Origin: a virus | Direction: 5' to 3' (one strand) | UHGV virus genome: UHGV-1430452 | DNA length: 64,000 nt | Part shown: piece by piece, positions 15,215 to 50,550 of the stretch | How the letters are laid out: each line of letters begins with the position of its first letter | Numbering within the stretch: the first letter of the stretch is position 1 | Translations under genes and position numbers: made by a program | The notes under the pieces: generated by a model | The model's input: only the letters and a program-made list of their open reading frames with translations | The model's database searches: none | Told to the model about the DNA's origin: nothing

Positions 15215-15303
15215 TTTTTATCTCCTTTCATGAACAGTTAAATTGTTTTTACCAAAAATCCCACTCGGGAAAATTTTGATCTTGAAAAAATAGAAATCGA
15301 AAA

Positions 15304-15375
15304 GAAACAGTGTAGGACTCGAACCCACAACCTACAGATATAAGTCTGTTGCTCTACCAATTGAGCTAACTGTTT
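15304..15375 (-). tRNA. Probable tRNA; anticodon region reads CUUAUA (possibly UAU, Ile/AUA) but the loop looks one nt short in my manual fold
   Basis: Acceptor stem AAACAGT/ACTGTTT, D-arm GCTC/GAGC, T-arm GTGGG-TTCGAGT-CCTAC all pair; anticodon stem ACAGA/TCTGT. Confidence 0.55.
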
Positions 15376-15709
15376 CTTCTCATAATAGCGCTTGTAAATT
15401 TCGCGAATATAGATCTTCAGAAACAAAAAAGAAGAACCCCGAAGGATTCTCCTAGACTTTCTTCTGAAGCTCAGAAACTGCTTTCTTCAACTCTTCAAAC
15501 TCCTTTTCTTTTTTCTGATCTGATAATGCACCTGCTATAGCCATAATACCTGTTACTACAACACCTGCATATTTTCCGACAGACTTCAGAAGCGGATTAT
15601 TGATAATACCTTTGAATTTCATTTTTCTCGTCTCCTTTCTTCATTCCATTAAAGGAAATGTTTTTGTCGCGATACCGGTTTCGCTATATCAAAATATCAT
15701 CGTTTATCG

Positions 15710-24070: not shown

Positions 24071-25657
24071 GTGGAACCAATGACAACGTTTGATATGAAC
24101 AACGCTGTAGACAATGCGTTCGGTATGGACGTATATGCTATCTATCTTCGGAAAAGTCGAGCCGATGTAGAAGCAGAAAAACTTGGAGAAGGAGAAACAC
24201 TAGCAAGGCATAGAAAGATACTAACAGAACTTGCTGCTAGAAAAGGATTGTATATCGGTAAGATTTACGAGGAAATTGTATCTGGTGAAACAATCGAAGC
24301 TAGACCTGAAATACAAAAACTGATAGAAGATTGTTATAAAGGGAAATATAGAGGAATCCTAATAGTAGAAGTTACTCGTCTATCTCGTGGTAATCAAGGA
24401 GACGCTCAAAAAATACTCGACTGTCTCAAATATTCGAATAGAAACAATGGTGTATTAGTTATCACTCCTACTAAGACTTATGACGTTGCACACAGCCAAG
24501 AAGACGAAGAATATATGGAGTTTGAATTGTTTATGTCTCGTCGAGAATATAAGATGATTCAAAAGCGTATGGATCGTGGCCGTAAACAAGCAGTCGTAGA
24601 AGGAAACTTCATGGGTAGTTACCGTCCCTATGGATATGACATCTTAAAAACCAAGACCGGACGAACACTTATACCGAATGAAGATGAAGCTCCTATCGTG
24701 AAAATGATTTACGAATGGACAGTTAACGATAATTTATCTCCTTTCAAGATAGCTGAGCGTTTAACTAATATGGGTGTTCCTACTTATTATGGTGAGAAGG
24801 ATTGGTCTAAAGAAACAGTTAAAACCATTTTGACGAATCAGACATACATGGGTAAAGTTCGTTGGAATGATCGAATGACTGTTAAGACTATGGTCGACGG
24901 AGAACTTAAAGCTACACGACCTCGTTCAAATCATTCCGATCACTTCATGCTATATGATGGAAAACATATGAAACACGCACTCGTCGACGAAGAAACATTC
25001 AAAGCAGCCTCCTCTCGCTTTCATAACGATAGGACAAGATCAAATCTAAAACTTGTTAATCCTCTTGCAGGACTTCTATTTTGTAAGAAATGTGGTAAAT
25101 CTATGGGTTATCAATCATATAGACATAAGAAAAACGGACCAATGGATCGATACAATCATAGACAGTCTGCTAATGGATGCAAGGTTAAGTCAGCAGTTGC
25201 TGAGGATGTTATAAAAGCTGTTATACATGCTTTGAAACTTTATATAGAAGATTTCGAATTTAAGTTAGACAACACTCCAGATGTTGACGAAAATTCAATC
25301 AATACGCAGCTCGAAGCTTTACAAAAAGAAATACGAAAATCCGAACGAAAACTTGCTAAGCTATTCGATTCTTGGGAAGATGAGAAGATAACAGATAATG
25401 AATTTGTTCAAAGGAAAGCCGTCCATAATCAGAAGATAGAAAATATAAAGAGGCAAATGGAAGAACTCGAATATTCGATACCAGAAAGAGAAGAATATGA
25501 GGATAAAATAATATTGCTGTCTGAAGCACTTGTCGCTATCACAGACGAATCGCTTGACGCAGATATTAAGAACGAGTATCTTAAAAGAATCATTGATAGA
25601 ATAGAGTTTAGTAGAGAGAATAACTCAGAGTTTATACTAGATATAGACTTATGCTAA
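24071..25657 (+). CDS. Large serine recombinase (integrase)
   Basis: 528 aa; resolvase-like N-terminus with catalytic-Ser context YLRKSRADVE; C-terminal zinc-ribbon CKKCGKS and coiled-coil; true start may be the ATG at 24080. Confidence 0.88.
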   Translation: MEPMTTFDMNNAVDNAFGMDVYAIYLRKSRADVEAEKLGEGETLARHRKILTELAARKGLYIGKIYEEIVSGETIEARPEIQKLIEDCYKGKYRGILIVEVTRLSRGNQGDAQKILDCLKYSNRNNGVLVITPTKTYDVAHSQEDEEYMEFELFMSRREYKMIQKRMDRGRKQAVVEGNFMGSYRPYGYDILKTKTGRTLIPNEDEAPIVKMIYEWTVNDNLSPFKIAERLTNMGVPTYYGEKDWSKETVKTILTNQTYMGKVRWNDRMTVKTMVDGELKATRPRSNHSDHFMLYDGKHMKHALVDEETFKAASSRFHNDRTRSNLKLVNPLAGLLFCKKCGKSMGYQSYRHKKNGPMDRYNHRQSANGCKVKSAVAEDVIKAVIHALKLYIEDFEFKLDNTPDVDENSINTQLEALQKEIRKSERKLAKLFDSWEDEKITDNEFVQRKAVHNQKIENIKRQMEELEYSIPEREEYEDKIILLSEALVAITDESLDADIKNEYLKRIIDRIEFSRENNSEFILDIDLC

Positions 25658-25715
25658 ATGGTGGCTTTGCTGCCTGTAAGACCTGCACTAAAATGGTGTA
25701 GGTAACTTTTTCCCC

Positions 25716-25770
25716 GACATATATATCATGGTTGTGTTTCTTTTATATCGCCACCATGATATATATCACA
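25716..25770. repeat. Perfect 14-bp inverted repeat (ATATATATCATGGT) with 20-bp spacer downstream of the recombinase gene
   Basis: Arms at 25719..25732 and 25753..25766; candidate attP core or operator. Confidence 0.5.
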
Positions 25771-25813
25771 GGGAAACTATTCTAAACGTTGATATATCAA
25801 GGAGGAGATATAC

Positions 25814-26065
25814 ATGAGAATAGTATGGAAAGACAGTGCGCCTAAAACAAAACCTTGGTTGACGTTCAAATATAGAGAACATATCGTTAGCCAATATGGA
25901 GATGGATGGATTACCGATATACCTGGTGATAACAATATCTATTTTCCGAGAGAGTGTGCTTATAATGCAATCGATAAGTCTCTAGGTGGAAAGACACGAA
26001 AAGCTAATCCTCAAAGACATAAATTAGGAATAAAAGTTATTGGTAGAAAGGACGATGTATCATGA
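25814..26065 (+). CDS. Small hypothetical protein, tandem paralog A (MRIVWKDS...)
   Basis: 83 aa; RBS GGAGGAG; paralog of the next gene. Confidence 0.5.
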   Translation: MRIVWKDSAPKTKPWLTFKYREHIVSQYGDGWITDIPGDNNIYFPRECAYNAIDKSLGGKTRKANPQRHKLGIKVIGRKDDVS

Positions 26066-26313
26066 GAATCGTATGGAAAGATAGTCATAAGCCAAAAGAA
26101 TATGAACCTATGAAATATCGAAATATTTACATCTTCGGTACTCCTGAAGGATGGGAAGTAAATATAAAAGGAGATAATAATCTATACAAGACTCATTACT
26201 GTGCTATGAATGCGATTGATGATTACTTTGGAGATTTTGGAGAACGTGGTACAGAAAAACGTAAACGATATGGAATACAAATAATAGGTAAGAAAAATGA
26301 TGAGACTGCATGA
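26062..26313 (+). CDS. Small hypothetical protein, tandem paralog B (MRIVWKDS...)
   Basis: 83 aa; start overlaps stop of paralog A (ATGA); shared MRIVWKDS, GDNN.Y, NAID, G.RG.. K+.+ GI..IG+K.D. Confidence 0.5.
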   Translation: MRIVWKDSHKPKEYEPMKYRNIYIFGTPEGWEVNIKGDNNLYKTHYCAMNAIDDYFGDFGERGTEKRKRYGIQIIGKKNDETA

Positions 26314-26361
26314 ATCTCAAAAGCCACTTCCTTTTCTGGAGGTGGCATATTTTTATCTAGG

Positions 26362-26913
26362 TTAGACATTTCTATTTTCGTATGACGTAAATTTTACATT
26401 TGTGTACTCGTTAACCAAAAAGCTACATGCTTCATTAACTGTTTTAACGACGGATTCCCCTTCTATATAACTCTGATAATTCCTTCTTTGATTTTCAAAT
26501 TTAAGATCAGGTTCAACCATGGTATCTACACTTAACCATATTAGTTCCGTAGTATAGTCTTCGGTAAAATATCCTTTTATAAAAACCTCTTTCTTTCCAA
26601 CCGTTCCGATTAGTTTTATAAACGACATATCATGCTTCGTCAGATTAAACGCATATCTTATTCCTTTTACATATTGCCCGCCAAGTTTCCTCGACTTAAT
26701 TGTTTCATAGTAATTATCTTTATTGTTGTTCTTTTTATGCCACTCATCCGATATACAAATCCACATTAAAAGTTCGCTTAAAGTTGCAACCATGGATATG
26801 CTATTTTGTTTGTCGCTTGTGCTTAAATATTCATGAAATCTTTTATGAGATTCTCTTAATCCATGGTTTATATACATTAGCCTAAATTCTTCGACACTAT
26901 TCATTATCTGCAT
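26362..26913 (-). CDS. hypothetical protein (moron/accessory candidate)
   Basis: 183 aa; very AT-rich; convergent with the paralog pair; between the lysis and integration modules. Confidence 0.45.
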   Translation of the reverse strand: MQIMNSVEEFRLMYINHGLRESHKRFHEYLSTSDKQNSISMVATLSELLMWICISDEWHKKNNNKDNYYETIKSRKLGGQYVKGIRYAFNLTKHDMSFIKLIGTVGKKEVFIKGYFTEDYTTELIWLSVDTMVEPDLKFENQRRNYQSYIEGESVVKTVNEACSFLVNEYTNVKFTSYENRNV

Positions 26914-27009
26914 TCCTCCTTTTATCGTAATATTCGACCATATAGGAGAAATTTCCTTTTAACCATATGAAGAAAAATAAAAGGGGCTGTTTTATTCGCC
27001 CCAATTATT

Positions 27010-27318
27010 TTACATCTTGTGTGAAATCTCCTCGCAATGCTTTTCCAATGATTTGATTCGTTCTTCGTGACCCTGATTTTGAATTTTCAGCTCGTCTATT
27101 TCAGATCCATGATTCGTAACCCGAGTCTTCAAGTTATTAATCATCTCGGTCAAGAAGTTTATAGTCGCGTTGAGTTTGATTATGTTTTCGTTTAGCTTTT
27201 CGATAGGCTCATTTTTAGAATGTTCTTCCTGAGTAATATCCTTCCTCAGTTTCATATAGAAAGCGAACACTGAGCCTATGACTGTTAAGACAATGATTAT
27301 AACTTGATTCTCTGCCAT
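27010..27318 (-). CDS. Membrane-anchored coiled-coil protein (lysis-associated?)
   Basis: 102 aa; N-terminal helix IIIVLTVIGSVFAFY then coiled-coil; immediately after the holin. Confidence 0.45.
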   Translation of the reverse strand: MAENQVIIIVLTVIGSVFAFYMKLRKDITQEEHSKNEPIEKLNENIIKLNATINFLTEMINNLKTRVTNHGSEIDELKIQNQGHEERIKSLEKHCEEISHKM

Positions 27319-27320
27319 AG

Positions 27321-27614
27321 TTATTTTTCCTTCGCTGTATTATTATCGTCTTTCTTACCTTCTACAAATCTACTAAATCCCTGATGTAGACCTGTAGATG
27401 CCAGACCCATAACTGCACCATATACGATGGAATCGACAGAGATGCCGCTTACTGCCGTATTCAATGCTGCGCCGACAACAGCCAGGATGACTGGAATATC
27501 GTCGTTAGGGATACGTTTTAAAAAAGTCGCATGTTTGATGATATATCCAACCACCAGACAAGCGACCATTACTACAAGTACGAAATGTTCAGTTAAAATT
27601 TTTGCGAAATCCAT
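27321..27614 (-). CDS. Putative holin
   Basis: 97 aa; two hydrophobic helices and a charged C-terminus (KKDDNNTAKEK). Confidence 0.55.
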   Translation of the reverse strand: MDFAKILTEHFVLVVMVACLVVGYIIKHATFLKRIPNDDIPVILAVVGAALNTAVSGISVDSIVYGAVMGLASTGLHQGFSRFVEGKKDDNNTAKEK

Positions 27615-40894: not shown

Positions 40895-43800
40895 TTATAT
40901 CCTCCTTTCTATCACGGCTGCTCTTACAATTTCTTTAACAGCTTCTGTAATATTGCTTCCATCATCATAAGTAAGACCGTTAATGTTATATGAAACACCA
41001 CCAACATTACCTAAGTCTTTACGAAGTCTGTTTATTGCTGAAACAACATCATCCATAGATCCATTTTGAATTCTTTCACCCATCATAGAATTTATGGTGT
41101 TTAGTCTTGACATTACTCCCAATGTAGGAGTTCCATTCAACATGCCGTTAATTGCACTAGCTCCAGATTTAATATCAGACAAATCAAGGACTGGTCTTAT
41201 TGTCGGCTGAGTGTTGATATCTCCGTCAAGAAGACTCGAAATTCTCGACATTGCTGTTTGAGTACTGTTAACAGCGTTATCGGACATTCTAGAAATAGAT
41301 TGTTTCACTAATCCTCCGAACATACCGATACCCTTAGCAAATCCAATAGGAACATATGAACCTATTTTCATGAACACCCTTGAAGGTGAATGAATAGCAA
41401 GATTAGCCCTAGCTGCTGCCGATGCTGCCGCTGCCATTGAAGCTGCTGCATTTGCCGCCGACCAAATGTTCGCTTGAATACCTGCTACAAATCCGCTAGC
41501 TACATAAGATCCAGAACTATAAAAGCTTGAATAATATCCTCTAGTAGAAGATACTGCTGAAGACAATATCGACGTTGTTGTGTTCACAACACTTGAAGCT
41601 CTACTTCGCATACCGTTTACGAATTGTGTCATTAAAGCAACGCCATTAGTTCCAAATACGGATCTTTTACTGCTAATAGCTTTAAGCATCGAGTTGATAA
41701 TATTGGTAGCTGTTGATGTTACCAATGCTTGTTTTGATTTCAAACCATTAGAGAAAGATGTAATTAAGTTCGATCCAATGTTCGACATCTTAGACGTTGA
41801 ACCACTAAATGATTTAGTAATACTATTCATAGAAGTTTGACCCAAAGTAGATACAGCAGTTTTAAACGATGCTACGCCGCTTGTGTTAAGTCCGGCCAAA
41901 CTACTAATAAAATTCTTAATCTTAGTAGCCGCTGTTATAGAGCTAGATATTGATCCGACATTTATACCTGCAACAGAATCAGAGTAACTTTTTAAAGTAC
42001 TTCCGATAGTTCCTATCTTAAAGTTTGAAACTCCACTAGAATCCAAACTTGATAGTCCCTGAATAAAAGTCTTTAATCTATTTGCCGCAGTAACAGAAGA
42101 TGTAACTTTACCAGAGTCCACATTTTCAACCGACTTAGAGTAGCTCTTCAAAGTAGTTCCAATAGATCCTATTTTGAAGTTACTAACACCACTACTATCC
42201 AATCCCGTAAGACTTGATACAAAATTTCTAAGTCTATTTGCTGATGATATGGATGATGAGACTATACCCGGGTCCATATCTTTAACGGAGTTTCCGTAGT
42301 CCTGCATAGCCTTACCTATGGAATTAATCTTGAAGTTTTCAATACCGCTTGTATCAAGACCCACCAGACTAGCTATTAAACTCTTAAGTCTTAAAGCTAC
42401 TGAGACTGCTGTGTTTACTTTAGCGATATCGATATCGGCTACAGATTCTCCGAACTTACCTATAGCCTGTCCAATATTAACCAAATGACCGTCTCCGGCT
42501 CCAACACCTGCAAAGCTACTAACACCACTTGCATCGAGATCGGCTAAAGCGGTAATCAGGTTTTTAATCCTATAAGCGGCTGTTATGGCGGTGTTTATAC
42601 CATCAGAGTTTATGTTTGCAGCGTCTGTTGAGAATGTAGTCATGGCCGAGCTGAATTTTTCGACGTATTTTGAGAATTCCTCAAGATTCATCTTACCGTC
42701 AAACCAGCCTTCTTCTGGAAGGGCTTCTTGAAGAGCTATAATAGCGCTACCTGCATTCGTTACGGATGTTACGACTGCTTCCGATATACCGTCCTCTCCC
42801 ATTCCGGTTTTAAGTTTGCCCATAGCTGTAGCAAATTGACCTATGTTTTCGCCAAAAGTTCCTAAGTCATCTTTTCCGGTAAACCAGTCGATTACTCCTC
42901 CCATATTCTCAAGAGAAGATTGTAATCCAGCAAGTTTAGTAGCCGCATTTATAATAGAAGTAATTGAATCATCATCTATTTTTGTATCTCCTAAATCGGC
43001 AAAAGCAGTTTTCATCGATCCCATAAAGCTAGCGACACTAGACCCAAAAGTCCCTAAGTCGTCCCTTCCAGTGAACCAGTCAACCACTCCTCCTATATTT
43101 TCAAGCGATGACTGCAAGCCTGATAATTTAGTAGCTGCGTCGATGATTATGCCGATTGCTTCGGTATTTATTTTGACTCCGTCTAAGCTTGAAAATGCTT
43201 TTGTCATAGATCCTATAAATAGACCTATATTTACACCAAATGTGCCGAGGTCGTCTCTACCTTTAAACCAGCTTATTACTCCACCTATTGGTTCGAGTGC
43301 TGACTGCAATCCTGCTAATTTAGTTGATCCATCGATAATGGTAGTCAAAGCTTCAGAATTAAATTCAACACCATCAAGACTCTGAAAAGCAGTTTTCATA
43401 GAGAATATAAATTGAGCTACGTTTGTTCCAAAAGTTCCAAGATCATCTCTACCTTTAAACCAACTTATTACTCCGCCTATAGGTTCCAATGACGATTGTA
43501 AATTAGCTAGAATAGTAGTAGCACTTATTATTGCGGTTAATCCTTCTGTGTTTAAAGTAATTCCTTCTAGATCAGAGAACGCAACTTTCATGGAAGATAT
43601 GAATTCTCCTACACTTTCTCCAAATGTGCCGAGGTCGTCTCTACCTTTAAACCAGCTTATTACTCCGCCTATTGGTTCAAGGCTAGATTGAAGTTTACTC
43701 AGTTCAGCAGCTCCAGTAATGATCGATGTTAAAGCTTCCGTATTGAAGGATACTCCGTCAAGACCTAGAAAAGCATTCTTCATTGAGAATATAAATTGAC

Positions 43801-46800
43801 CGACGTTAGTTCCGAAAGTCGCGAGGTCATCCCTGCCAGAGAACCAATCCATAACACCGCCTATAGGCTCCAATGACGATTGTAATTCGCTAAGTTTCGT
43901 TGCTACATTTATCACAGCGCCCATTGCCGCCTCGTCTATTGTGATTCCAGCAGAAGCTTGCGATATCGCTTTCATAGCATTGAAGAACGCAACACCATCG
44001 GTCTCAAACTTCTCCATAGAAGTACCACCGAGAGTGAATATGTCAGCGATAGAAGTACCAACTGTTGTAAATCCTATCTCTGCCATAGCACTCATTAAAT
44101 CGGACACGCCATCGAAAGATCCTGATTTAATACCACTAGCATTTTCGCTTGCTATAGCTAGTTTGTCCATGAAATCAGCAATATTTTGACCTATTTCCGG
44201 TAAACTTCCGGTAATACCTTCTCCGATTCCTCCTATGAATGCTCCGATTCCTTTGCCGATTGCGTTTCCTATTTTTCCTAATAATCCACCGCCAGCTTCA
44301 ACAAGGGACGAAAAACCTGGAATTTTAGATAACCCACCGATTGCTGCCAGAAGTACTGCTATCTCAGCTATTACAGCACCAACGGCTAATACTCCGGTCA
44401 TTGCTGGGCCGGCTAAAGCTCCAGCTCCGGCGAATACTTTCATCAATATTCCGATTACTCCGAATGCACCTATGCCTTTTAGCATAGTATCCATATCTAA
44501 ATTGCCTATCGAATCGACGATACCTTTGACAACTTGTCCGACAAAATTCATTATTGCCGATATTAATTCTGGAGTATGCTCGGCAAGACTATTAATAACT
44601 CCGATTATAAAACCGAGAAGTGAATCGACAATCTGTGGTGCATACTGTTCTAATGCGTCTAAAACGCCTAAGAGCAGTTTCAGAAAACTTTCAGCCAATT
44701 GAGGTGCATATTCTCCTATAACTTTTGCGATTTCGACGATACCTCGACCTATTACTTCAGCAATTTGTGGAATCAATCCTAAAATACCGGTGATTATAAC
44801 TGTTATTGATGCGACAAGCGCTGTGGCACCAGCAGTTCCAGCAGTAGCAAGAGCTGTGAATCCAGCTGATAGAGCAAGTATACCAACGCCAATTCCAGCT
44901 ATAGCTACAGCAAATATAGCCATCGCAGCGGATAAACCAAGTATTGCCGGAGTGAGTGGACTCAGAAGAGCTCCAGCTACTCCTATTACTACAAAGGCTC
45001 CAGCAAGAGTTACGAGACCTTTTACTATGCTCTCCCAACTCATAGATCCTAATGATTTCAATACAGGTGTTAAAATTGCTAATCCAGCAGCTGCAACAAC
45101 TAATGCGGCAGACCCCTTAAGAGATCCACTCATGGCTTTTAATCCAATAGATAGCTCGACCAAAGCTATTCCAAGTACAACGAGTCCTTTTCCTATACTC
45201 TCCCAGCTCATCGATCCTAATGATTTTAAGACTGGAGTTAATATAGCAAGTGCTGACGCCATCAAAAGCATTTGACCGCCGAACTTAGCGATAGATCCAC
45301 TACCCTTGCTCATAATTTTAGAAGCTAACACCAGCATTGTAACAATACCTAATATTCCAGCTCCACCTTTAGCTAATTCGTTCCAACTCATAGAACCCAA
45401 ACTCTTACCAACAGCAGCCAAAATGCCAACCGCAGCTGACATGATAAGCATCTGTCCAGCAAATTTGGTTATAGACTTACTTTCAGTATTCATGAGTTTG
45501 GCAGCACCAACTAATATAGCGACTATTCCTAATATTCCGGCCCCACCTTTGGCTAATTCTTCCCAACTCATTGAACTGAGAATTTTAGCGACTCCAGATA
45601 ACGCTGCTATTGCTGCTGATAATATAAGCATCTGTCCAGCAAATTTGGTTATAGACTTACTTTCGGTATTCATAAGTTTAGCAGCCGCGACGAGTATAGC
45701 TACCATTCCACCAATACCAACGAGGCCTTTTGCTACACCGTTCCAATCAAGTCCAGCTATAATTTTCATAGCGCCTGCTAATATAAGAATAGCTGCTCCG
45801 AGTCCAATCATCTGAACAGTTCTAGCTATACCTGACAAACTTGATACTATACCAGATAAAGGTTTGACACTTTTGCTGTTTATTTTTTCAAGCACTGCTA
45901 ATGCAGATATCAACTCTACAAACAAACCGCCTATTGCGCCTAAAGAACTTCCGAGTTTATCCTCGTCTATTCCAGATATGACAAAAAGAGCCGCTGCCAG
46001 TATTCCAATAGCACCCGCTATTTTTAGCAATGTTCCGGCTTTAAGATTCTGTTGCCATGATTCCAAACTTCCCTTAACGCCATCAAGTATTTTTTTAACG
46101 TTATCTAAGAAACTTATTTTTTCGAATGGATCAGATAATCCTTTAATAAAGTTTCTTATGGCTAGTAATATTCCAGCAAACAATCCGCTGTTTAATACTT
46201 CGAAAATATCGCCTTTACCAAAGGCATCGGCTATCATATTACCTATATCGGAAAAAGCTTCTCCGATGGCCGCGCCAACCGACTTTATAGTGTTCCATAG
46301 ACCGGAAAAGAAGCCAAGAAAACCTTGAAGTGTAGGAGAAATCTTAAAACTCTCAATAAGTGAGCGTCCAAACTCTGCTATTTTTGAAATCCCGTTGCTA
46401 AGAAATCCAACAATTTTATCAACTGCGTCGCCAAACAGATTTCCTTCTACTATGGAGTCTCTCACATTCGAGATAAAATCTCCAAAAGAACTCGTTGCAT
46501 CCAGTATTCCTCCACCAAGTCCGGTGAAGTTTCCAATAATATCTAGAGCGCCTTTTCCAACAGCTTTAAAAGCCTCTATAACAATATCGATAGCGGAAAA
46601 GATTCCTTTAAATGTAGATTTTATTTTAGATGCAGCGCCTTCACTTACTTTTAAAGTATCAGTGAAAGCTTTGAATCTATCAATCATACTTACTACTTGG
46701 TCGACTGTAGTAGGTGGAAATATCTCTCTAAAAGCTTCTTTTATCGGTTTTATTATATCTCCAAGGAATTTGAATATATTTTTCAAACCCTCTATAATTT

Positions 46801-48442
46801 TTTCTCTACCGCCAAGCTCGGTTATTCCATCGATAAGACCATCTATGTTGTCTTTTAATTTATTCGTAGATTCGTTTGCTTCATTTAGCGCTTTTAATGT
46901 AGCGTCATCAACGATACCTGTTATTTCTAAATCGTTAGCTTCCTGAAAAGCTTTAATAGCTGACTCTGTGGCACTTCCGAAAATTCCATCAGCACCAGAA
47001 TCGCCAATATCATAGTTAAGGCTTTGTAATGCTTTTTGTACTTTTGTTACGTCGTCTCCTGTATTACCTTTCGATAAACCGGCTTCGACTCCACTTAAAT
47101 CTACAAGTTCGCCTTTTAATCCGCTAACAGCTTCTTTTAAAATATCAGAAGATATGGCACCAGATTGAAAAGCTTTTTCTAGAGAACCATATTTTTTTAT
47201 GATCTCGTCCATATTAACGCCATGGTCCTCAGCAATCGATCTAACTTTTTCCTCAAAAGTATCGGTTTCTACACCAGCTTCATTTATTTTTTTTACAAGC
47301 TTATCCCAGTTAGAAGACATCGCGCCTTCCAATAATTCGTTACGAGATTTCGCTGATGATTCAACCATCTTTCCAATGGTATCTGAAATTCCAGTGAACA
47401 ATTCTTTGGAGTCTTCAAAATCACCGACAAGTATTCTCCAAGTTTGACCCCATCCAGATTGGAGAGATTCTTTTACCGTATCTATCAGCTGTGTGAATGT
47501 TTTTACTTTTGTAGCAGCGTCTTCAGCGTCCTTCGCTAAAGCCATAATATCGTTTGCTTGAGATTCGCTATAACCTTGGGCAATAAGATCGGCCTTACTA
47601 TATGCGCCAGACAATTGGTTAAGAGTTTCAGTTAATACCTCGGTCGTTAACCATTCACCTTTTGTTAGGCTTTCTCTAAAGCTGCCATATGTATCAATAG
47701 CTTGTTTAGCGCCTGTTCCCAAAAGTTCAGACGTTCTAACAAGTGCGTCCTGAAATACCTTACCACCCATACCGGCATTAACAACTGAGTTCCAGTCCAT
47801 AAGACTAACTTTACCTGCCGCCAATGCCTGAGAAAGCTGATACATCGCAGTAGATGCCTGTTGAGAAGTTGATCCAGAAACTGCGGCCAAGTTCGCAATA
47901 CCTTTAATAGCATTAACTGAGGTATCAAGTTTTACACCAGCTGCTGTAAACGTACCGATATTACGAGTCATTTCCGTAAAATTGTAAATCGTCTTATCGG
48001 CATATGTATTTAGCTCATCTAAAGCCTTATTTACAATATCAACATTAGTGCCTTCCTGCCTTGTATTGGATAGAATTGTCTGAATAGCACCAATCTGAGT
48101 TTCGTATTCTTGGAAACCGCTTTTAACCGGATCTATAGTTAATGCTGATATCATACGTTTACCAGTGTTAACAGCCTGGTTAGTGATGTTTGCTAAAGCA
48201 GTTACACCAGCGACCTGTAGTGCTGAAAATTTAGCCTGAACTGTCTCTATACCACTGCTCATTCCTGCAAAGCTAACACCTTTAGCAGCCTTACCGACAT
48301 TCTCCAACCCTTTGGAGGCACCAGATAGATTTAACTTTTGTTTGAGCTTATCGAGAGTTGACATACTGGTTGCGACTCCGCTCTCAAACTGCTTATTGTC
48401 GAACCGCATCTCCAAGACTCTGTTGTCAATAGTCGTACTCAT
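40895..48442 (-). CDS. Tail tape measure protein (2515 aa) with peptidoglycan-binding domain, hydrophobic segments and two internal repeat arrays
   Basis: TMP-like N-terminus; PG_binding_1-like GNTGDDVTKVQKALQSLNYDIGDSGADGIFGSATESAIKAFQ; repeated LQSSLEPIGGVISWFKGRDDLGTFG and SGVSNFKIGSIG units. Confidence 0.9.
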   Translation of the reverse strand: MSTTIDNRVLEMRFDNKQFESGVATSMSTLDKLKQKLNLSGASKGLENVGKAAKGVSFAGMSSGIETVQAKFSALQVAGVTALANITNQAVNTGKRMISALTIDPVKSGFQEYETQIGAIQTILSNTRQEGTNVDIVNKALDELNTYADKTIYNFTEMTRNIGTFTAAGVKLDTSVNAIKGIANLAAVSGSTSQQASTAMYQLSQALAAGKVSLMDWNSVVNAGMGGKVFQDALVRTSELLGTGAKQAIDTYGSFRESLTKGEWLTTEVLTETLNQLSGAYSKADLIAQGYSESQANDIMALAKDAEDAATKVKTFTQLIDTVKESLQSGWGQTWRILVGDFEDSKELFTGISDTIGKMVESSAKSRNELLEGAMSSNWDKLVKKINEAGVETDTFEEKVRSIAEDHGVNMDEIIKKYGSLEKAFQSGAISSDILKEAVSGLKGELVDLSGVEAGLSKGNTGDDVTKVQKALQSLNYDIGDSGADGIFGSATESAIKAFQEANDLEITGIVDDATLKALNEANESTNKLKDNIDGLIDGITELGGREKIIEGLKNIFKFLGDIIKPIKEAFREIFPPTTVDQVVSMIDRFKAFTDTLKVSEGAASKIKSTFKGIFSAIDIVIEAFKAVGKGALDIIGNFTGLGGGILDATSSFGDFISNVRDSIVEGNLFGDAVDKIVGFLSNGISKIAEFGRSLIESFKISPTLQGFLGFFSGLWNTIKSVGAAIGEAFSDIGNMIADAFGKGDIFEVLNSGLFAGILLAIRNFIKGLSDPFEKISFLDNVKKILDGVKGSLESWQQNLKAGTLLKIAGAIGILAAALFVISGIDEDKLGSSLGAIGGLFVELISALAVLEKINSKSVKPLSGIVSSLSGIARTVQMIGLGAAILILAGAMKIIAGLDWNGVAKGLVGIGGMVAILVAAAKLMNTESKSITKFAGQMLILSAAIAALSGVAKILSSMSWEELAKGGAGILGIVAILVGAAKLMNTESKSITKFAGQMLIMSAAVGILAAVGKSLGSMSWNELAKGGAGILGIVTMLVLASKIMSKGSGSIAKFGGQMLLMASALAILTPVLKSLGSMSWESIGKGLVVLGIALVELSIGLKAMSGSLKGSAALVVAAAGLAILTPVLKSLGSMSWESIVKGLVTLAGAFVVIGVAGALLSPLTPAILGLSAAMAIFAVAIAGIGVGILALSAGFTALATAGTAGATALVASITVIITGILGLIPQIAEVIGRGIVEIAKVIGEYAPQLAESFLKLLLGVLDALEQYAPQIVDSLLGFIIGVINSLAEHTPELISAIMNFVGQVVKGIVDSIGNLDMDTMLKGIGAFGVIGILMKVFAGAGALAGPAMTGVLAVGAVIAEIAVLLAAIGGLSKIPGFSSLVEAGGGLLGKIGNAIGKGIGAFIGGIGEGITGSLPEIGQNIADFMDKLAIASENASGIKSGSFDGVSDLMSAMAEIGFTTVGTSIADIFTLGGTSMEKFETDGVAFFNAMKAISQASAGITIDEAAMGAVINVATKLSELQSSLEPIGGVMDWFSGRDDLATFGTNVGQFIFSMKNAFLGLDGVSFNTEALTSIITGAAELSKLQSSLEPIGGVISWFKGRDDLGTFGESVGEFISSMKVAFSDLEGITLNTEGLTAIISATTILANLQSSLEPIGGVISWFKGRDDLGTFGTNVAQFIFSMKTAFQSLDGVEFNSEALTTIIDGSTKLAGLQSALEPIGGVISWFKGRDDLGTFGVNIGLFIGSMTKAFSSLDGVKINTEAIGIIIDAATKLSGLQSSLENIGGVVDWFTGRDDLGTFGSSVASFMGSMKTAFADLGDTKIDDDSITSIINAATKLAGLQSSLENMGGVIDWFTGKDDLGTFGENIGQFATAMGKLKTGMGEDGISEAVVTSVTNAGSAIIALQEALPEEGWFDGKMNLEEFSKYVEKFSSAMTTFSTDAANINSDGINTAITAAYRIKNLITALADLDASGVSSFAGVGAGDGHLVNIGQAIGKFGESVADIDIAKVNTAVSVALRLKSLIASLVGLDTSGIENFKINSIGKAMQDYGNSVKDMDPGIVSSSISSANRLRNFVSSLTGLDSSGVSNFKIGSIGTTLKSYSKSVENVDSGKVTSSVTAANRLKTFIQGLSSLDSSGVSNFKIGTIGSTLKSYSDSVAGINVGSISSSITAATKIKNFISSLAGLNTSGVASFKTAVSTLGQTSMNSITKSFSGSTSKMSNIGSNLITSFSNGLKSKQALVTSTATNIINSMLKAISSKRSVFGTNGVALMTQFVNGMRSRASSVVNTTTSILSSAVSSTRGYYSSFYSSGSYVASGFVAGIQANIWSAANAAASMAAAASAAARANLAIHSPSRVFMKIGSYVPIGFAKGIGMFGGLVKQSISRMSDNAVNSTQTAMSRISSLLDGDINTQPTIRPVLDLSDIKSGASAINGMLNGTPTLGVMSRLNTINSMMGERIQNGSMDDVVSAINRLRKDLGNVGGVSYNINGLTYDDGSNITEAVKEIVRAAVIERRI
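42800..43950. repeat. Tandem in-frame repeats of about 190 bp inside the tape measure gene
   Basis: Near-identical DNA blocks, e.g. around 43241 and 43610 (CCAAATGTGCCGAGGTCGTCTCTACCTTTAAACCAGCTTATTACTCC); boundaries approximate. Confidence 0.6.
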
Positions 48443-48831: not shown

Positions 48832-50550
48832 TTACAGTAGCTCGTTAACTCGATCCTGAATTTTCTGAATCATGTTGTGATCGTATCCAGCTTTTGCGAG
48901 GGCATTAATTCGTGCATCTCCATTACCGTATTTTCCGGCAATGACATCACGGGCTACATTATCAATCACTATCTGATTTACTTTCTTCTGCACAGTGTCT
49001 GGATTATAACCAGCTTTCTTGAGAGCAGACACACGAGCATCACCATTACCCCATTTTCCAGCTAAAACCTCTTTAGCTACTTCATCGATAGATTTAGTAG
49101 GTTTTGCAGGAGCTTTAAGTAGTTCATTCACTTTCTTCTGTACAGTGTCTGGATTATAACCAGCTTTCTTGAGAGCAGACACACGAGCATCACCATTACC
49201 CCATTTTCCAGCTAAAACCTCTTTAGCTACTTCATCGATAGATTTAGTAGGTTTTGCAGGAGCTTTAAGTAGTTCATTCACTTTCTTCTGTACAGTGTCT
49301 GGATTATAACCAGCTTTCTTGAGAGCAGACACACGAGCATCACCATTACCCCATTTACCGGCGATTACTTCTTTAGCAATTTCATCGATAGATTTGGTCG
49401 GTTTTGGCGTAGATGTAGGTTTAGATGTTGGTGCTGGTGTGGAAGAACTTTTCGCATATTTTGGTCTAGCAAAACCACGAATCATACCCCAGCCAACCGG
49501 AATGGTACGTCTTGCTACTGCTTCTCCTCTGTTACCTTCAATCGCTGTGATTTGTCCGTTTGAAACAGATTCCACATACCCGATATGATCAGAATATCCG
49601 TCGTTTGGCTGAGTCTTATCATCCCAGTTATAAACAATTACATCACCAGGTTTCGGAGTAATGGTGCCGTCCTCGACCCAAATGCCTTTCTGCTTAAAAA
49701 TCTTAATATGTTCCTCACAACCAACTTCTGTACCGATGAGATCGACTGCTCCGGATTTGATAGCTGCTGCTGATACTGTACAATCACACCATTCATCATT
49801 AGGTTTAATAGCGTATCCGCGAGCCAAAGGTTTGTGAGAATTATAGATGTTAAGAATCTCAATATATTTACCGTTAGCTTCAGAATAACCGAGCCAACTT
49901 CTCATAACATTAAGAACGTCCTGTGCTGTTACACCCAATTCCGTATCCTCCTGTTTTCCGTAAAAATAGTTCATGTCGACTTTACCTTTAATACCGCCTA
50001 CAGTTCCGGAACTCGTATACTGATGAACCAAACAACCGTAATCTGCTTTTCCGTTATAATCAGCGAGCCAGAATTTGTACTGTTTAATCAGATCATGATT
50101 ATACCAATTTCGATAGTAGTCGATATTTGCGTAGATTCCAGCTTTGTATCCCTGAGATTCTACGTACTCACAAAAGATTCTTGTAAAGTTATTACATTCA
50201 TTTTTACCAAGTCTCACACCTTTTGCAGCTGCTTTCTTGACTGTGTCATATTCGAAATCTGCGAAGATGATTGTGTTTTTATCAAGACCAGCTTTTCTAA
50301 CAACATCAACACAGAATTTTGCTTCGTCAAGTGCGCCCTGTTCGTTTAAGGCATAAATAAAATGGTAAGTTCCTATAATCGGAATCTTGTTGTTTTTACA
50401 CCCATTGACATACTCATAGAATTTTGAATCTACTGTCTTCCTGTAAGAAGATCTAAGAATCGCGAACTCTATTCCGGAGGACTTGACTTTAGAAAAATCT
50501 ACATCTCCCTGCCAATAGCTGATATCAATTCCTTTCTTCACAATCATCAT
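48832..50550 (-). CDS. Endolysin: GH25 muramidase + Cys/His peptidase domain (CHAP or NlpC/P60-like) + tandem CW_7 cell-wall-binding repeats
   Basis: 572 aa; GH25-like GIDISYWQG; Cys...His block; repeated IDEVAKEVLAGKWGNGDARVSALKKAGYNPDTVQKKVNELL. Confidence 0.88.
   Translation of the reverse strand: MMIVKKGIDISYWQGDVDFSKVKSSGIEFAILRSSYRKTVDSKFYEYVNGCKNNKIPIIGTYHFIYALNEQGALDEAKFCVDVVRKAGLDKNTIIFADFEYDTVKKAAAKGVRLGKNECNNFTRIFCEYVESQGYKAGIYANIDYYRNWYNHDLIKQYKFWLADYNGKADYGCLVHQYTSSGTVGGIKGKVDMNYFYGKQEDTELGVTAQDVLNVMRSWLGYSEANGKYIEILNIYNSHKPLARGYAIKPNDEWCDCTVSAAAIKSGAVDLIGTEVGCEEHIKIFKQKGIWVEDGTITPKPGDVIVYNWDDKTQPNDGYSDHIGYVESVSNGQITAIEGNRGEAVARRTIPVGWGMIRGFARPKYAKSSSTPAPTSKPTSTPKPTKSIDEIAKEVIAGKWGNGDARVSALKKAGYNPDTVQKKVNELLKAPAKPTKSIDEVAKEVLAGKWGNGDARVSALKKAGYNPDTVQKKVNELLKAPAKPTKSIDEVAKEVLAGKWGNGDARVSALKKAGYNPDTVQKKVNQIVIDNVARDVIAGKYGNGDARINALAKAGYDHNMIQKIQDRVNELL
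48981..49430. repeat. Three near-identical 150-bp tandem repeats (plus one divergent copy upstream) encoding the CW_7 repeats
   Basis: CTTTCTTCTG(C/T)ACAGTGTCTGGATTATAACCAGCTTTCTTGAGAGCAGACACACGAGCATCACC units at about 48981, 49132 and 49282. Confidence 0.8.

What the first reader, a model, noticed from the sequence alone, without database searches (positions are those of the whole stretch)
26362..26913. AT-rich orphan gene at the classic moron position between the lysis and integration modules
The 183-aa protein has no motif I recognise, the gene is noticeably more AT-rich than its flanks, and it converges on the paralog pair. Prophage loci at this position often carry abortive-infection or other defence cargo.
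Basis: inference. Interest (0 to 1): 0.4.

Follow-up and report, generated by a model that had tools for sequence, protein, structure and literature searches.

The report
Solo HEPN-like accessory gene in phage
A real, strongly conserved 180-residue gene has been inserted as optional cargo at the end of a gut phage's late operon; it belongs to an unnamed protein family that looks like a HEPN-type RNA-cutting enzyme, the kind prophages use to block rival phages, but no function has been tested.

Summary
The ORF at 26362-26913 (-) is real. Its start is probably M4, at 26904. dN/dS against its closest homologue is 0.04. It has the lowest GC of 60 genes in the window (31.7% against 38.2%). It converges on the 83-aa paralog pair across a shared hairpin.

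It is accessory. Twenty-one related phages with 62-93% identical integrases keep the same repressor-integrase-paralog-holin layout but lack this gene. This rules out roles as an excision factor or a core lysis protein. A GH25/CHAP/CW_7 lysin is encoded elsewhere (48832-50550).

No Pfam, NCBIfam or PADLOC model matches. The only hit is the unannotated phrog_30856. An exhaustive profile search finds 112 clusters of about 170-aa, mostly standalone proteins, some next to integrases in unrelated bacteria.

The family motif is G-L-R-x-A-[R/aromatic]-N-x-x-[x/K]-H. The His is invariant. A canonical HEPN R-N-x3-H occurs in 27 of 86 members. The other members, including this one, carry a Lys next to the His instead, and the two states are mutually exclusive. 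[quoted passage not shown]

Best reading: a solo HEPN-like RNase carried as a moron, probably a defence or toxin gene. That function is inferred, not shown.

The parts
26362..26904 (-). Coding sequence of the 180-aa HEPN-like protein. The longest ORF extends to 26913 and gives 183 aa. The probable start is the ATG at 26904-26902 (M4).
   Evidence: ORF. Homologues start at M4, and the SD spacing is 10 nt to M4 against 2 nt to M1. dN/dS is 0.043 against L007. It is the only hit of the family HMM in the window, E 1.6e-53.
26632..26658 (-). Codons for residues R86-H94 (R-Y-A-F-N-L-T-K-H), the family's signature motif. H94 is invariant, N90 is near-invariant, and K93 takes the place of the canonical HEPN arginine at position 89.
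   Evidence: Column counts over 86 family members. The AF2 model places 86-94 at the C-terminal end of helix 77-95. Coordinates were derived here from the M1 numbering (residue n = 26913-3(n-1)..).
26905..26960 (-). Conserved 5' leader block, AAAAGGAAATTTCTCC..GTCGAAT..AAGGAGG. An anti-SD stretch (UUUCUCCU) can pair with the Shine-Dalgarno sequence.
   Evidence: RNA fold of the block: -12.5 kcal/mol, z = -3.1. The block is conserved in L007, L001 and L006. The hairpin z-scores there are -2.5, -2.2 and -0.07. No Rfam family matches.
26972..27002 (-). Terminator-like hairpin, GGGGC-10 nt loop-GCCCC followed by UUUUAUUUUU. It sits directly after the XhlA-like gene and separates the late/lysis operon from the target gene.
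   Evidence: Read from the sequence and folded. The scan tool missed it because its loop limit is 8 nt. The same hairpin is present in L007, and an analogous one in L001.
26323..26346 (.). Stem-loop between the two convergent stop codons, which could end transcription from both directions.
   Evidence: Terminator-like site on the + strand with 9 pairs, 6 of them GC. On the - strand the same stem folds and is followed by UUUU.
27010..27614 (-). Upstream context: the holin (27321-27614, Phage_holin_5_2) and a 102-aa transmembrane + coiled-coil protein (27010-27318, weakly XhlA-like). This is the end of the conserved late operon in relatives that lack the target gene.
   Evidence: Pfam and PHROG hits. 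In relatives L013-L030 the holin is followed by a transmembrane/coiled-coil ORF of 88-109 aa and then directly by the paralog genes.
25814..26313 (+). Downstream context: the two 83-aa paralogs that the target gene converges on. They belong with the integrase, not with the target gene.
   Evidence: They are present, as one or two copies, next to the integrase in 20 of the 21 integrase-related loci, none of which has the target gene; the 21st (L032) ends about 70 bp after the integrase. They have no family hits.

Best explanation
The gene is an optional cargo gene (a moron) inserted after the last late-operon gene of a temperate gut-phage lineage. It encodes a standalone, cytoplasmic, roughly 180-aa member of an undescribed family that most likely belongs to the HEPN superfamily of metal-independent RNases.

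Proposed mechanism, which is inferred:
- The protein forms a HEPN-type helical bundle that oligomerises. His94 acts as the general base, Asn90 and a neighbouring cation complete the active site, and Glu47 on helix 2 assists. In this subfamily the cation is Lys93; in canonical members it is Arg89.
- It cleaves RNA (tRNA, mRNA or rRNA), leaving 2',3'-cyclic phosphate ends.
- Like other solo prophage HEPN proteins (HepS, AbiV, Tha), it would be kept inactive or scarcely translated. The leader can sequester its own ribosome-binding site.
- It would be unleashed when a competing phage infects, arresting translation and aborting that infection.

Shown here: the gene is real and under purifying selection, it is accessory, and it has a conserved His/Asn/basic motif in a HEPN-like position.

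Inferred only: RNase activity, the trigger, and the defence role.
For: Real gene: 12 close homologues and dN/dS 0.043.

Accessory insertion:
- Absent from all 21 loci with 62-93% identical integrase and otherwise the same layout.
- L013 has 43 bp where the window has 696 bp.
- Lowest GC of 60 genes.
- Hairpins on both sides.
- The leader block moves with the gene.

Family: 112 clusters, mostly 160-180 aa and standalone. Distant members sit beside tyrosine integrases or a PIN toxin in Actinomycetota and other bacteria.

HEPN features, judged against the definition in PMC3710099:
- Helical bundle with pLDDT 83.8 and pTM 0.82.
- His94 is invariant in 86/86 members and Asn90 is present in 81/86.
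- R-N-x3-H occurs in 27/86 members, and R and H are invariant in that subfamily.
- Basic residues at positions 89 and 93 are mutually exclusive: 27 members have it at 89, 58 at 93, and 1 at neither.
- The motif lies at the end of helix 77-95. E47 (77/86) lies in helix 38-62. A short insert helix (65-75) lies between them.

Precedent: prophage-encoded solo HEPN abortive-infection protein HepS (PMC13043305).
Against: - No sequence-level link to any HEPN model. Pfam scans of all 86 members gave only one DUF4145 hit, at E 0.064. PADLOC has no AbiV/AbiD/AbiJ or other HEPN Abi hit; the only HEPN-bearing model listed is one Csx1 hit at E 0.033. PDB profile searches are empty.
- Foldseek against PDB is non-significant (best E 0.86).
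- The window protein itself lacks the canonical Arg. R86 to H94 is Rx7H, which is outside Rx4-6H.
- No promoter was detected, so expression in lysogens is unsupported.
- The neighbouring cargo genes are not known defence genes.
- No partner or trigger was identified.
Confidence: 0.45

Rival explanations
1. A toxin of an addiction or stabilisation module. The HEPN-like protein is a growth-arresting toxin, and its synthesis or activity is held down in cis by its own structured leader RNA, as in type I or type III toxin-antitoxin logic or the phage AbiF/RCd22 pair of C. difficile. It would favour retention of the prophage rather than defence.
For: - The conserved leader block has an anti-SD/SD hairpin in four homologous loci.
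- There is no protein partner gene: the upstream and downstream neighbours vary or belong to other modules.
- There is a precedent for RNA control of a phage-borne HEPN toxin in Clostridia (PMC12373285).
Against: - The leader has no repeats and no match to the abiF motif or any Rfam family.
- The hairpin is weak in L006 (z = -0.07), and L004 and L005 lack the block.
- Only four sequences are available, so covariation cannot be assessed.
- Toxicity has not been tested.
Confidence: 0.15
2. A lytic-cycle helper for the phage itself. It would be an RNase or RNA-binding protein made by read-through at the end of the late operon, and would reshape host RNA (host shut-off, tRNA processing) or counter a host defence.
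For: - The gene has the same orientation as the late operon and lies directly downstream of it. No independent promoter was found.
- In L004 the homologue lies only 16 nt after the upstream gene with no terminator.
- In L001-L003 an RNA ligase (PF09414, phrog_548) lies directly upstream, which hints at an RNA-break/repair theme.
Against: - A terminator-like hairpin precedes the gene in the window, L007 and L001.
- In L006 the gene is divergent from its upstream neighbour, so there it must have its own promoter.
- Close relatives do without the gene.
- Distant members sit in bacterial chromosomes beside integrase remnants, not in phage late operons.
Confidence: 0.15
3. A non-catalytic helical-bundle protein, for example an inhibitor or decoy that binds a host or phage protein (anti-defence or superinfection exclusion). 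The conserved His/Asn/Trp residues would serve binding or folding, and the HEPN resemblance would be convergent.
For: - Foldseek finds nothing significant.
- No HEPN HMM matches.
Against: - An invariant His, a near-invariant Asn four residues before it, and a strictly either/or basic residue (27:58:1) form the pattern of a catalytic site.
- One third of the family has the exact canonical R-N-x3-H.
- The positions of the motif and of the helix-2 acid match the published HEPN anatomy.
Confidence: 0.15
4. A core module component: either the recombination directionality factor of the adjacent large serine integrase, or the missing endolysin of the holin cassette.
For: - The homologue lies next to, and convergent with, a serine recombinase in every phage locus recovered with it.
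- It occupies the place after holin/XhlA where PBSX-like cassettes carry the lysin. No lysin is adjacent.
Against: - Twenty-one phages with 62-93% identical integrases, and those among them that share the holin, lack the gene.
- Family members also sit next to tyrosine integrases.
- The window encodes a GH25+CHAP+CW_7 lysin at 48832-50550.
- L001 has an Amidase_3 endolysin as well as the homologue.
- There is no muralytic fold or domain hit.
Confidence: 0.03

Closest known systems
HepS, the 'HEPN solo' abortive-infection protein of the Salmonella prophage Gifsy-1 (PMC13043305)
   Same: - It is a standalone single-domain protein of under 250 aa, encoded as accessory cargo of a temperate siphovirus.
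- It has no partner gene.
- It has a HEPN-type helical fold with an essential His.
   Different: - HepS has a canonical RX4H (R100-H105), whereas the window protein has Phe at the Arg position and Lys next to the His.
- The PDB profile searches returned no HEPN protein. Whether HepS is in that PDB copy is unknown.
[quoted passage not shown]
- For HepS the activator (tail-tip protein J), the tRNA target and the tetramer are demonstrated. Nothing has been tested here.
- The HepS sequence could not be retrieved for a direct comparison. It is absent from the LT2 Gifsy-1 record.
HepT / DUF86 toxins of HEPN-MNT toxin-antitoxin pairs (PDB 5yep_B, 7ae2_A, 8xdj_A)
   Different: - HepT always has an adjacent MNT antitoxin gene and an RX4HXY motif. 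Here there is no MNT neighbour.
- This protein has an extra beta-meander plus two helices after the motif.
HEPN abortive-infection proteins AbiV, AbiD/AbiF (Abi_2), AbiJ and AbiU2, and the DUF4145 / c2405 clade of Anantharaman et al. 2013 (PMC3710099)
   Same: - They are single-gene or small mobile-element-borne HEPN effectors.
- Some families (c2405, Parep1/8) keep the His but lack the Arg, with other basic residues proposed to substitute, which is the situation seen here.
- One family member gives a borderline DUF4145 hit at E 0.064.
   Different: No Pfam or PADLOC model of these families matches any of the 86 members at a meaningful E-value. AbiV typically lacks the motif His and uses another one, whereas here the motif His is invariant.
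phrog_30856 (PHROGs v4, unknown function)
   Same: It is the same protein family: 41 of 86 members match, with best E 3.2e-11. The window protein matches at E 4.7e-5 over residues 81-170.
   Different: The PHROG carries no annotation, so it adds membership but no function.
P2 Tin, a lysogenic-conversion protein that blocks T-even phages
   Same: It is an AT-rich moron of a temperate phage. Two family members gave weak PADLOC 'Tin' hits (best E 5.9e-4).
   Different: Profile comparison with the P2 Tin sequence gives a probability of 0.07%. The two are unrelated.

Membership tests
HEPN superfamily (definition: Anantharaman et al. 2013, PMC3710099) | [quoted passage not shown] | tested here: met
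HEPN superfamily | Conserved Rx4-6H motif with an essential His | tested here: inconclusive
   The His is invariant (86/86). R-N-x3-H is present in 27/86 family members, and R and H are invariant in that subfamily. The window protein has F89 in place of the Arg, so it does not itself carry Rx4-6H. It has K93 and R86 instead. Basic residues at 89 and 93 are mutually exclusive across the family. HEPN families lacking the Arg are on record.
HEPN superfamily | Polar residue (N, D or H) immediately after the motif Arg position | tested here: met
   N90 is present in 81/86 members, including the window protein.
HEPN superfamily | [quoted passage not shown] | tested here: met
   Residues 86-94 close helix 77-95 of the model and a loop follows. 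This matches the description.
HEPN superfamily | Second conserved acidic residue in helix 2, typically Ex3[KR] | tested here: inconclusive
   E47 is conserved in 77/86 members and lies in helix 38-62, but the context is E-x3-W (W51 in 84/86), not Ex3[KR]. Spatial proximity to H94 could not be measured because no coordinates were available.
HEPN superfamily | Detectable profile similarity to an established HEPN family | tested here: not met
   Pfam scans of 86 and 29 members gave only one DUF4145 hit, at E 0.064. PADLOC has no HEPN Abi model hit. PDB profile searches gave none. HMM-to-HMM comparison against Pfam or PDB70 was not available.
HEPN superfamily | Dimer or oligomer that brings two motifs together, and metal-independent RNase activity leaving a 2',3'-cyclic phosphate | not testable with these tools
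   This needs multimer modelling or experiment.
Moron (autonomous accessory transcription unit in a prophage) | Present in some and absent from other closely related phages at the same position | tested here: met
   Absent from the 21 integrase-related loci, where the locus reaches that position, and from 80 further related loci within the flanks fetched. Present in L007.
Moron | Base composition differs from the surrounding genome | tested here: met
   GC is 31.7% against a gene mean of 38.2%, the lowest of 60 genes, z = -2.3.
Moron | Own promoter and terminator; expressed from the repressed prophage | tested here: inconclusive
   Terminator-like hairpins lie upstream and downstream. No sigma-70-like promoter was found on the - strand. 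In L006 the homologue is divergent from its neighbour, so a promoter must lie in the conserved leader region. Expression is not testable here.
Known anti-phage defence systems (PADLOC-DB v2) | Match to a defence-system protein model | tested here: not met
   There were no hits for the window protein at E up to 10. Across the family only scattered weak hits appeared, and the Tin lead was refuted by hhalign at probability 0.07%.
Recombination directionality factor of the adjacent serine integrase | Co-inheritance with its integrase | tested here: not met
   Integrases 62-93% identical occur without the gene in 21 loci.
Endolysin / lysis cassette component | Muralytic domain, or conservation with the holin | tested here: not met
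   There is no such domain or fold. Relatives with the same holin lack the gene. The lysin is at 48832-50550.

The most novel reading that the evidence does not exclude
This is the founding example of an undescribed HEPN family in which the catalytic arginine has migrated: Arg five residues before the His in one branch, and Lys immediately before the His in the other, never both. It would act as a one-gene, phage-sensing abortive-infection RNase of gut Bacillota prophages. Its synthesis would be gated by a portable leader RNA that masks its own ribosome-binding site, and in some phages it would be paired with an RNA ligase that could repair self-inflicted RNA damage.
Probability: 0.25. Interest if true: 0.55.

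Novelty: new variant of a known kind. Interest (0 to 1): 0.35.

Why it matters
Solo HEPN proteins have only recently been shown to be complete prophage defence systems (HepS, 2026). Current defence-finder profile sets miss this family entirely. If the assignment holds, three things follow.

1. It adds a family of 112 clusters, spread from gut phages to Actinomycetota, to the catalogue of single-gene RNA-targeting immunity.
2. It offers a natural experiment on the HEPN active site, because the Arg89 and Lys93 states are mutually exclusive across the family.
3. It marks the slot between the late operon and the integrase-side paralog genes in this phage lineage as a place to look for further cargo.

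If the assignment does not hold, the gene is one more conserved hypothetical moron. Either way the immediate practical value is modest, because the host is uncultured and nothing has been tested.

Tried and rejected
- Pfam, NCBIfam and PADLOC on the protein gave nothing. PHROGs gave only an unannotated family.
- tblastn and megablast against 50,697 phage records found no match.
- Pattern scans of GTDB genomes and IMG/VR for close relatives of the protein found none. The GTDB scan for the integrase also found none.
- PDB sequence-profile searches with the whole family and with the canonical-motif subfamily gave no meaningful hits.
- Foldseek against PDB and BFVD was not significant. The best BFVD hit is an unnamed 177-aa viral protein at E 0.028, probably a family member. 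The AFDB library was unavailable.
- The PADLOC 'Tin' lead (2 of 86 members) was rejected after fetching P2 tin and running hhalign and BLASTP.
- I tried to obtain HepS from the Gifsy-1 record for a direct comparison. The LT2 record has no ORF with R100/H105.
- An Rfam scan of the leader and flanks found no abiF motif or any other family. It returned only miRNA-like hits to a palindrome next to the integrase.
- The promoter scan found nothing upstream of the gene. My manual candidates were weak and inconsistent between loci, so I make no promoter claim.
- The RDF and endolysin hypotheses were rejected on comparative grounds.
- Neighbouring cargo genes in homologous loci were scanned for defence functions. 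None was found, and only an RNA ligase was identified.

Full report
**1. The observation**

- The ORF 26362..26913 on the minus strand (183 aa) is present.
- Homologues begin at the residue matching M4. The AGGAGG box lies 10 nt upstream of that ATG (26904-26902) but only 2 nt upstream of the first ATG. The likely product is therefore 180 aa.
- The gene is coding and constrained. Twelve proteins at 51-92% identity exist among 5.8 billion clusters, all from metagenome assemblies. dN/dS against the closest copy (L007) is 0.043 at dS 0.81.
- GC is 31.7%. This is the lowest of 60 genes in the window (mean 38.2%, sd 2.8), and only 0.85% of windows of the same size are as low.
- The gene converges on two 83-aa paralogs (25814-26313, +). 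The stop codons are 48 bp apart with a stem-loop at 26323-26346 between them.
- Upstream on the same strand lie a Hol44-type holin (27321-27614) and a transmembrane/coiled-coil protein that is weakly XhlA-like (27010-27318). Beyond the paralogs lie a large serine recombinase (24071-25657) and a double-HTH repressor.
- The description is therefore correct, with two amendments. The start codon is probably M4. The 'lysis module' here is holin plus XhlA-like only, and the muralytic enzyme (GH25 + CHAP + four CW_7 repeats) is at 48832-50550.

**2. Cargo or core?**

- In the six phage contexts recovered through the protein itself (L001-L007), the homologue is always the last gene on the late strand and converges on a serine recombinase. 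The gene immediately upstream differs between loci: an RNA ligase, unknown 202-aa and 155-aa proteins, a divergent 219-aa gene, or the XhlA-like gene.
- That sample is biased, because it was retrieved with the protein. I therefore fetched relatives through the integrase (21 IMG/VR loci, 62-93% identity) and through the conserved 139-aa early protein (80 loci).
- A family HMM finds no member in any of these 101 loci.
- The integrase-related loci keep the order repressor, integrase, paralog gene(s), then, convergently, a transmembrane/coiled-coil ORF and the holin.
- In L013 (integrase 93% identical) 43 bp separate the paralog stop from the transmembrane/coiled-coil stop. In the window the same interval is 696 bp and holds the target gene plus its leader.
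- The gene is therefore an insertion into a variable slot. The slot is 326-1735 bp in the relatives where the holin can be located.
- This excludes an obligatory partner role for the integrase (RDF) and a core lysis function.

**3. The transcription-unit anatomy**

- On the minus strand, the XhlA-like stop codon is followed by GGGGC-N10-GCCCC and a U-run (26972-27002). The whole intergenic RNA folds at z = -3.0.
- The scan tool missed this hairpin because of its loop-size limit, and it found no sigma-70-like promoter on this strand.
- Between the hairpin and the start codon lies a 56-nt block (26905-26960) in which UUUCUCCU can pair with the Shine-Dalgarno sequence (-12.5 kcal/mol, z = -3.1).
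- The block, including an invariant GTCGAAT, is conserved in L007, L001 and L006, although the proteins are only 63-92% identical.
- In L006 the upstream gene is on the opposite strand. The block therefore travels with the gene and must include its promoter there.
- The hairpin is supported in three of the four loci (z = -3.1, -2.5, -2.2 and -0.07). Four sequences are too few for covariation statistics.
- No Rfam family matches.

**4. The protein**

- No Pfam, NCBIfam or PADLOC model matches. The only hit is phrog_30856 (unknown function, E 4.7e-5), which 41 of 86 family members also match.
- An exhaustive HMMER search with the close-homologue profile finds 112 cluster representatives at E <= 1e-3. 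Almost all are 150-180 aa. One carries an N-terminal two-transmembrane-helix extension.
- Distant members are solo genes:
  - one in Geodermatophilus, beside a tyrosine-integrase fragment, an excisionase-like HTH and a PIN toxin;
  - one between two tyrosine integrases;
  - one near an AAA_13 ATPase.
- In the 86-sequence alignment H94 is invariant. W51, Y69, G84, N90, W126 and Y146 are above 90%, and E47 is present in 77/86 members.
- The signature is G-L-R-x-A-[R or aromatic]-N-x-x-[x or K]-H.
  - Twenty-seven members have Arg at position 89, which gives a canonical HEPN R-N-x3-H. In a 29-sequence alignment of that branch the R and H are invariant.
  - Fifty-eight members, including the window protein (R-Y-A-F-N-L-T-K-H), have no basic residue at 89 but have Lys at 93.
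  - Only one member has neither (Fisher p about 2e-21, not corrected for phylogeny).
- A cationic side chain is thus required next to the invariant His but can come from either position. This is the behaviour of an active site.

**5. Fold**

- AlphaFold2 on the 13-sequence alignment gives pLDDT 83.8 and pTM 0.82. The elements are helices 6-31, 38-62, 65-75 and 77-95, a small beta-meander at 102-126, then helices 137-150 and 155-171.
- Eight of the top 25 hits are HEPN-superfamily proteins: HepT toxins 5yep_B, 7ae2_A and 8xdj_A; the Csm6 HEPN domain 6tug_A; YutE 1ylm_B; HI0074 1jog_A; the integron cassette protein 3jrt_A; and the kanamycin nucleotidyltransferase C-domain 6nlt_A.
- Generic adaptor bundles score equally well. 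Foldseek against PDB and BFVD gives nothing significant. Fold similarity alone is therefore not decisive.
- The published anatomy of HEPN domains (PMC3710099, read) states the following:
  - the Rx4-6H motif sits at the end of helix 3;
  - the residue after the Arg is usually N, D or H;
  - a second conserved acidic residue lies in helix 2;
  - inserts occur between helices 2 and 3;
  - helix 4 is often kinked;
  - some families keep the His but have lost the Arg, with other basic residues substituting.
- Each of these points is matched by the model and alignment: the motif at the end of helix 77-95, N90, E47 in helix 38-62, the insert helix 65-75, split C-terminal helices, and the Arg/Lys swap.
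- Against membership, no HEPN profile matches. Pfam gave one DUF4145 hit at E 0.064, PADLOC gave none, and the PDB profiles gave none.
- I put HEPN-superfamily membership at roughly 0.7.

**6. Mechanism and role**

- By analogy with characterised HEPN enzymes, the protein would be a metal-independent endoribonuclease with H94 as the catalytic base.
- Its biology is that of a solo gene on mobile elements. It is dispensable for the phage, AT-rich, sits next to integration modules, and has a leader able to hold translation down.
- The closest documented parallel is HepS of Gifsy-1. HepS is a prophage-encoded single HEPN protein that stays inactive until a rival phage's tail-tip protein triggers tRNA cleavage (PMC13043305).
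- AbiV, Tha and the C. difficile phage AbiF with its RCd22 RNA are further parallels.
- I therefore favour a defence or abortive-infection effector (0.45).
- The rivals are:
  - an RNA-controlled addiction toxin (0.15);
  - a lytic-cycle RNase serving the phage (0.15), supported by the lack of a detected promoter, the tight coupling in L004, and the adjacent RNA ligase in L001-L003;
  - a non-catalytic binding protein (0.15).
- None of the neighbouring cargo genes in homologous loci is a known defence gene. PADLOC 'Tin' hits in two members were refuted by direct comparison with P2 Tin.

**7. Context notes**

- The window is phage DNA end to end. Its terminase is closest (84.6%) to an unannotated phage from human faeces. 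No host flank is visible, so 'prophage' status is not shown.
- A 68-bp imperfect palindrome lies just after the integrase gene (25709-25776). Its arms covary among relatives around a conserved centre. It may be attP.
- If it is attP, integration would place the paralogs and the target gene at one extremity of the prophage, which is the classical place for lysogenic-conversion genes.

**8. Verdict**

- The 'moron' reading is supported by comparative evidence.
- This is a new, unannotated family and a motif variant of a known kind of system.
- Interest is moderate to low (0.35).

Noticed in passing
window 25709-25776: There is a 68-bp imperfect palindrome (24-nt arms, 88% complementary, 20-nt centre) just downstream of the serine-integrase terminator. 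In related phages the arms change together while the centre (GTGTT.CTTTTATA.CGCC) stays conserved. It is a candidate attP or operator. Rfam only gives spurious miRNA-like hits to it.
   Followed up: partly
window 25814-26313 (+): The two 83-aa paralogs (41-45% identical to each other) occur, as one or two copies, directly downstream of the integrase in 20 of the 21 integrase-related loci. They have no hit in Pfam, PHROGs, NCBIfam or PADLOC. They co-inherit with the integrase, so they are better RDF or integration-module candidates than the target gene.
   Followed up: partly
window 48832-50550 (-): The only muralytic protein found is a 572-aa GH25 + CHAP + 4x CW_7 protein. It is encoded just upstream of the 2515-aa giant ORF (40895-48442), about 21 kb away from the holin. 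Relatives likewise have no endolysin next to the holin.
   Followed up: partly
window 15303-15376 (-): ARAGORN calls a tRNA-like gene with an abnormal two-base anticodon 'ta' and no amino-acid assignment.
   Followed up: no
L001 9248-9883 (also L002, L003): A 211-aa RNA ligase (PF09414, phrog_548 at E 2.6e-22) lies directly upstream of the homologue of the target gene, after the Amidase_3 endolysin. This pairing could reflect an RNA cleavage/repair theme, or it could be two independent cargo genes.
   Followed up: partly
L007 9154-9456: In the closest relative (integrase 97% identical) an extra 100-aa gene of unknown function is inserted between the palindrome and the paralog pair. That makes a second variable slot in the same region.
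   Followed up: partly
window 1-22000 (early region): The window holds three DUF6353 paralogs and four DUF7211 proteins (Pfam counts only, not mapped to individual ORFs). DUF6353 repeats recur in all related loci.
   Followed up: no
protein P0046 (331 aa, metagenomic): One family member carries an N-terminal extension of about 170 aa with two predicted transmembrane helices fused to the HEPN-like domain. This suggests a membrane-anchored variant.
   Followed up: no
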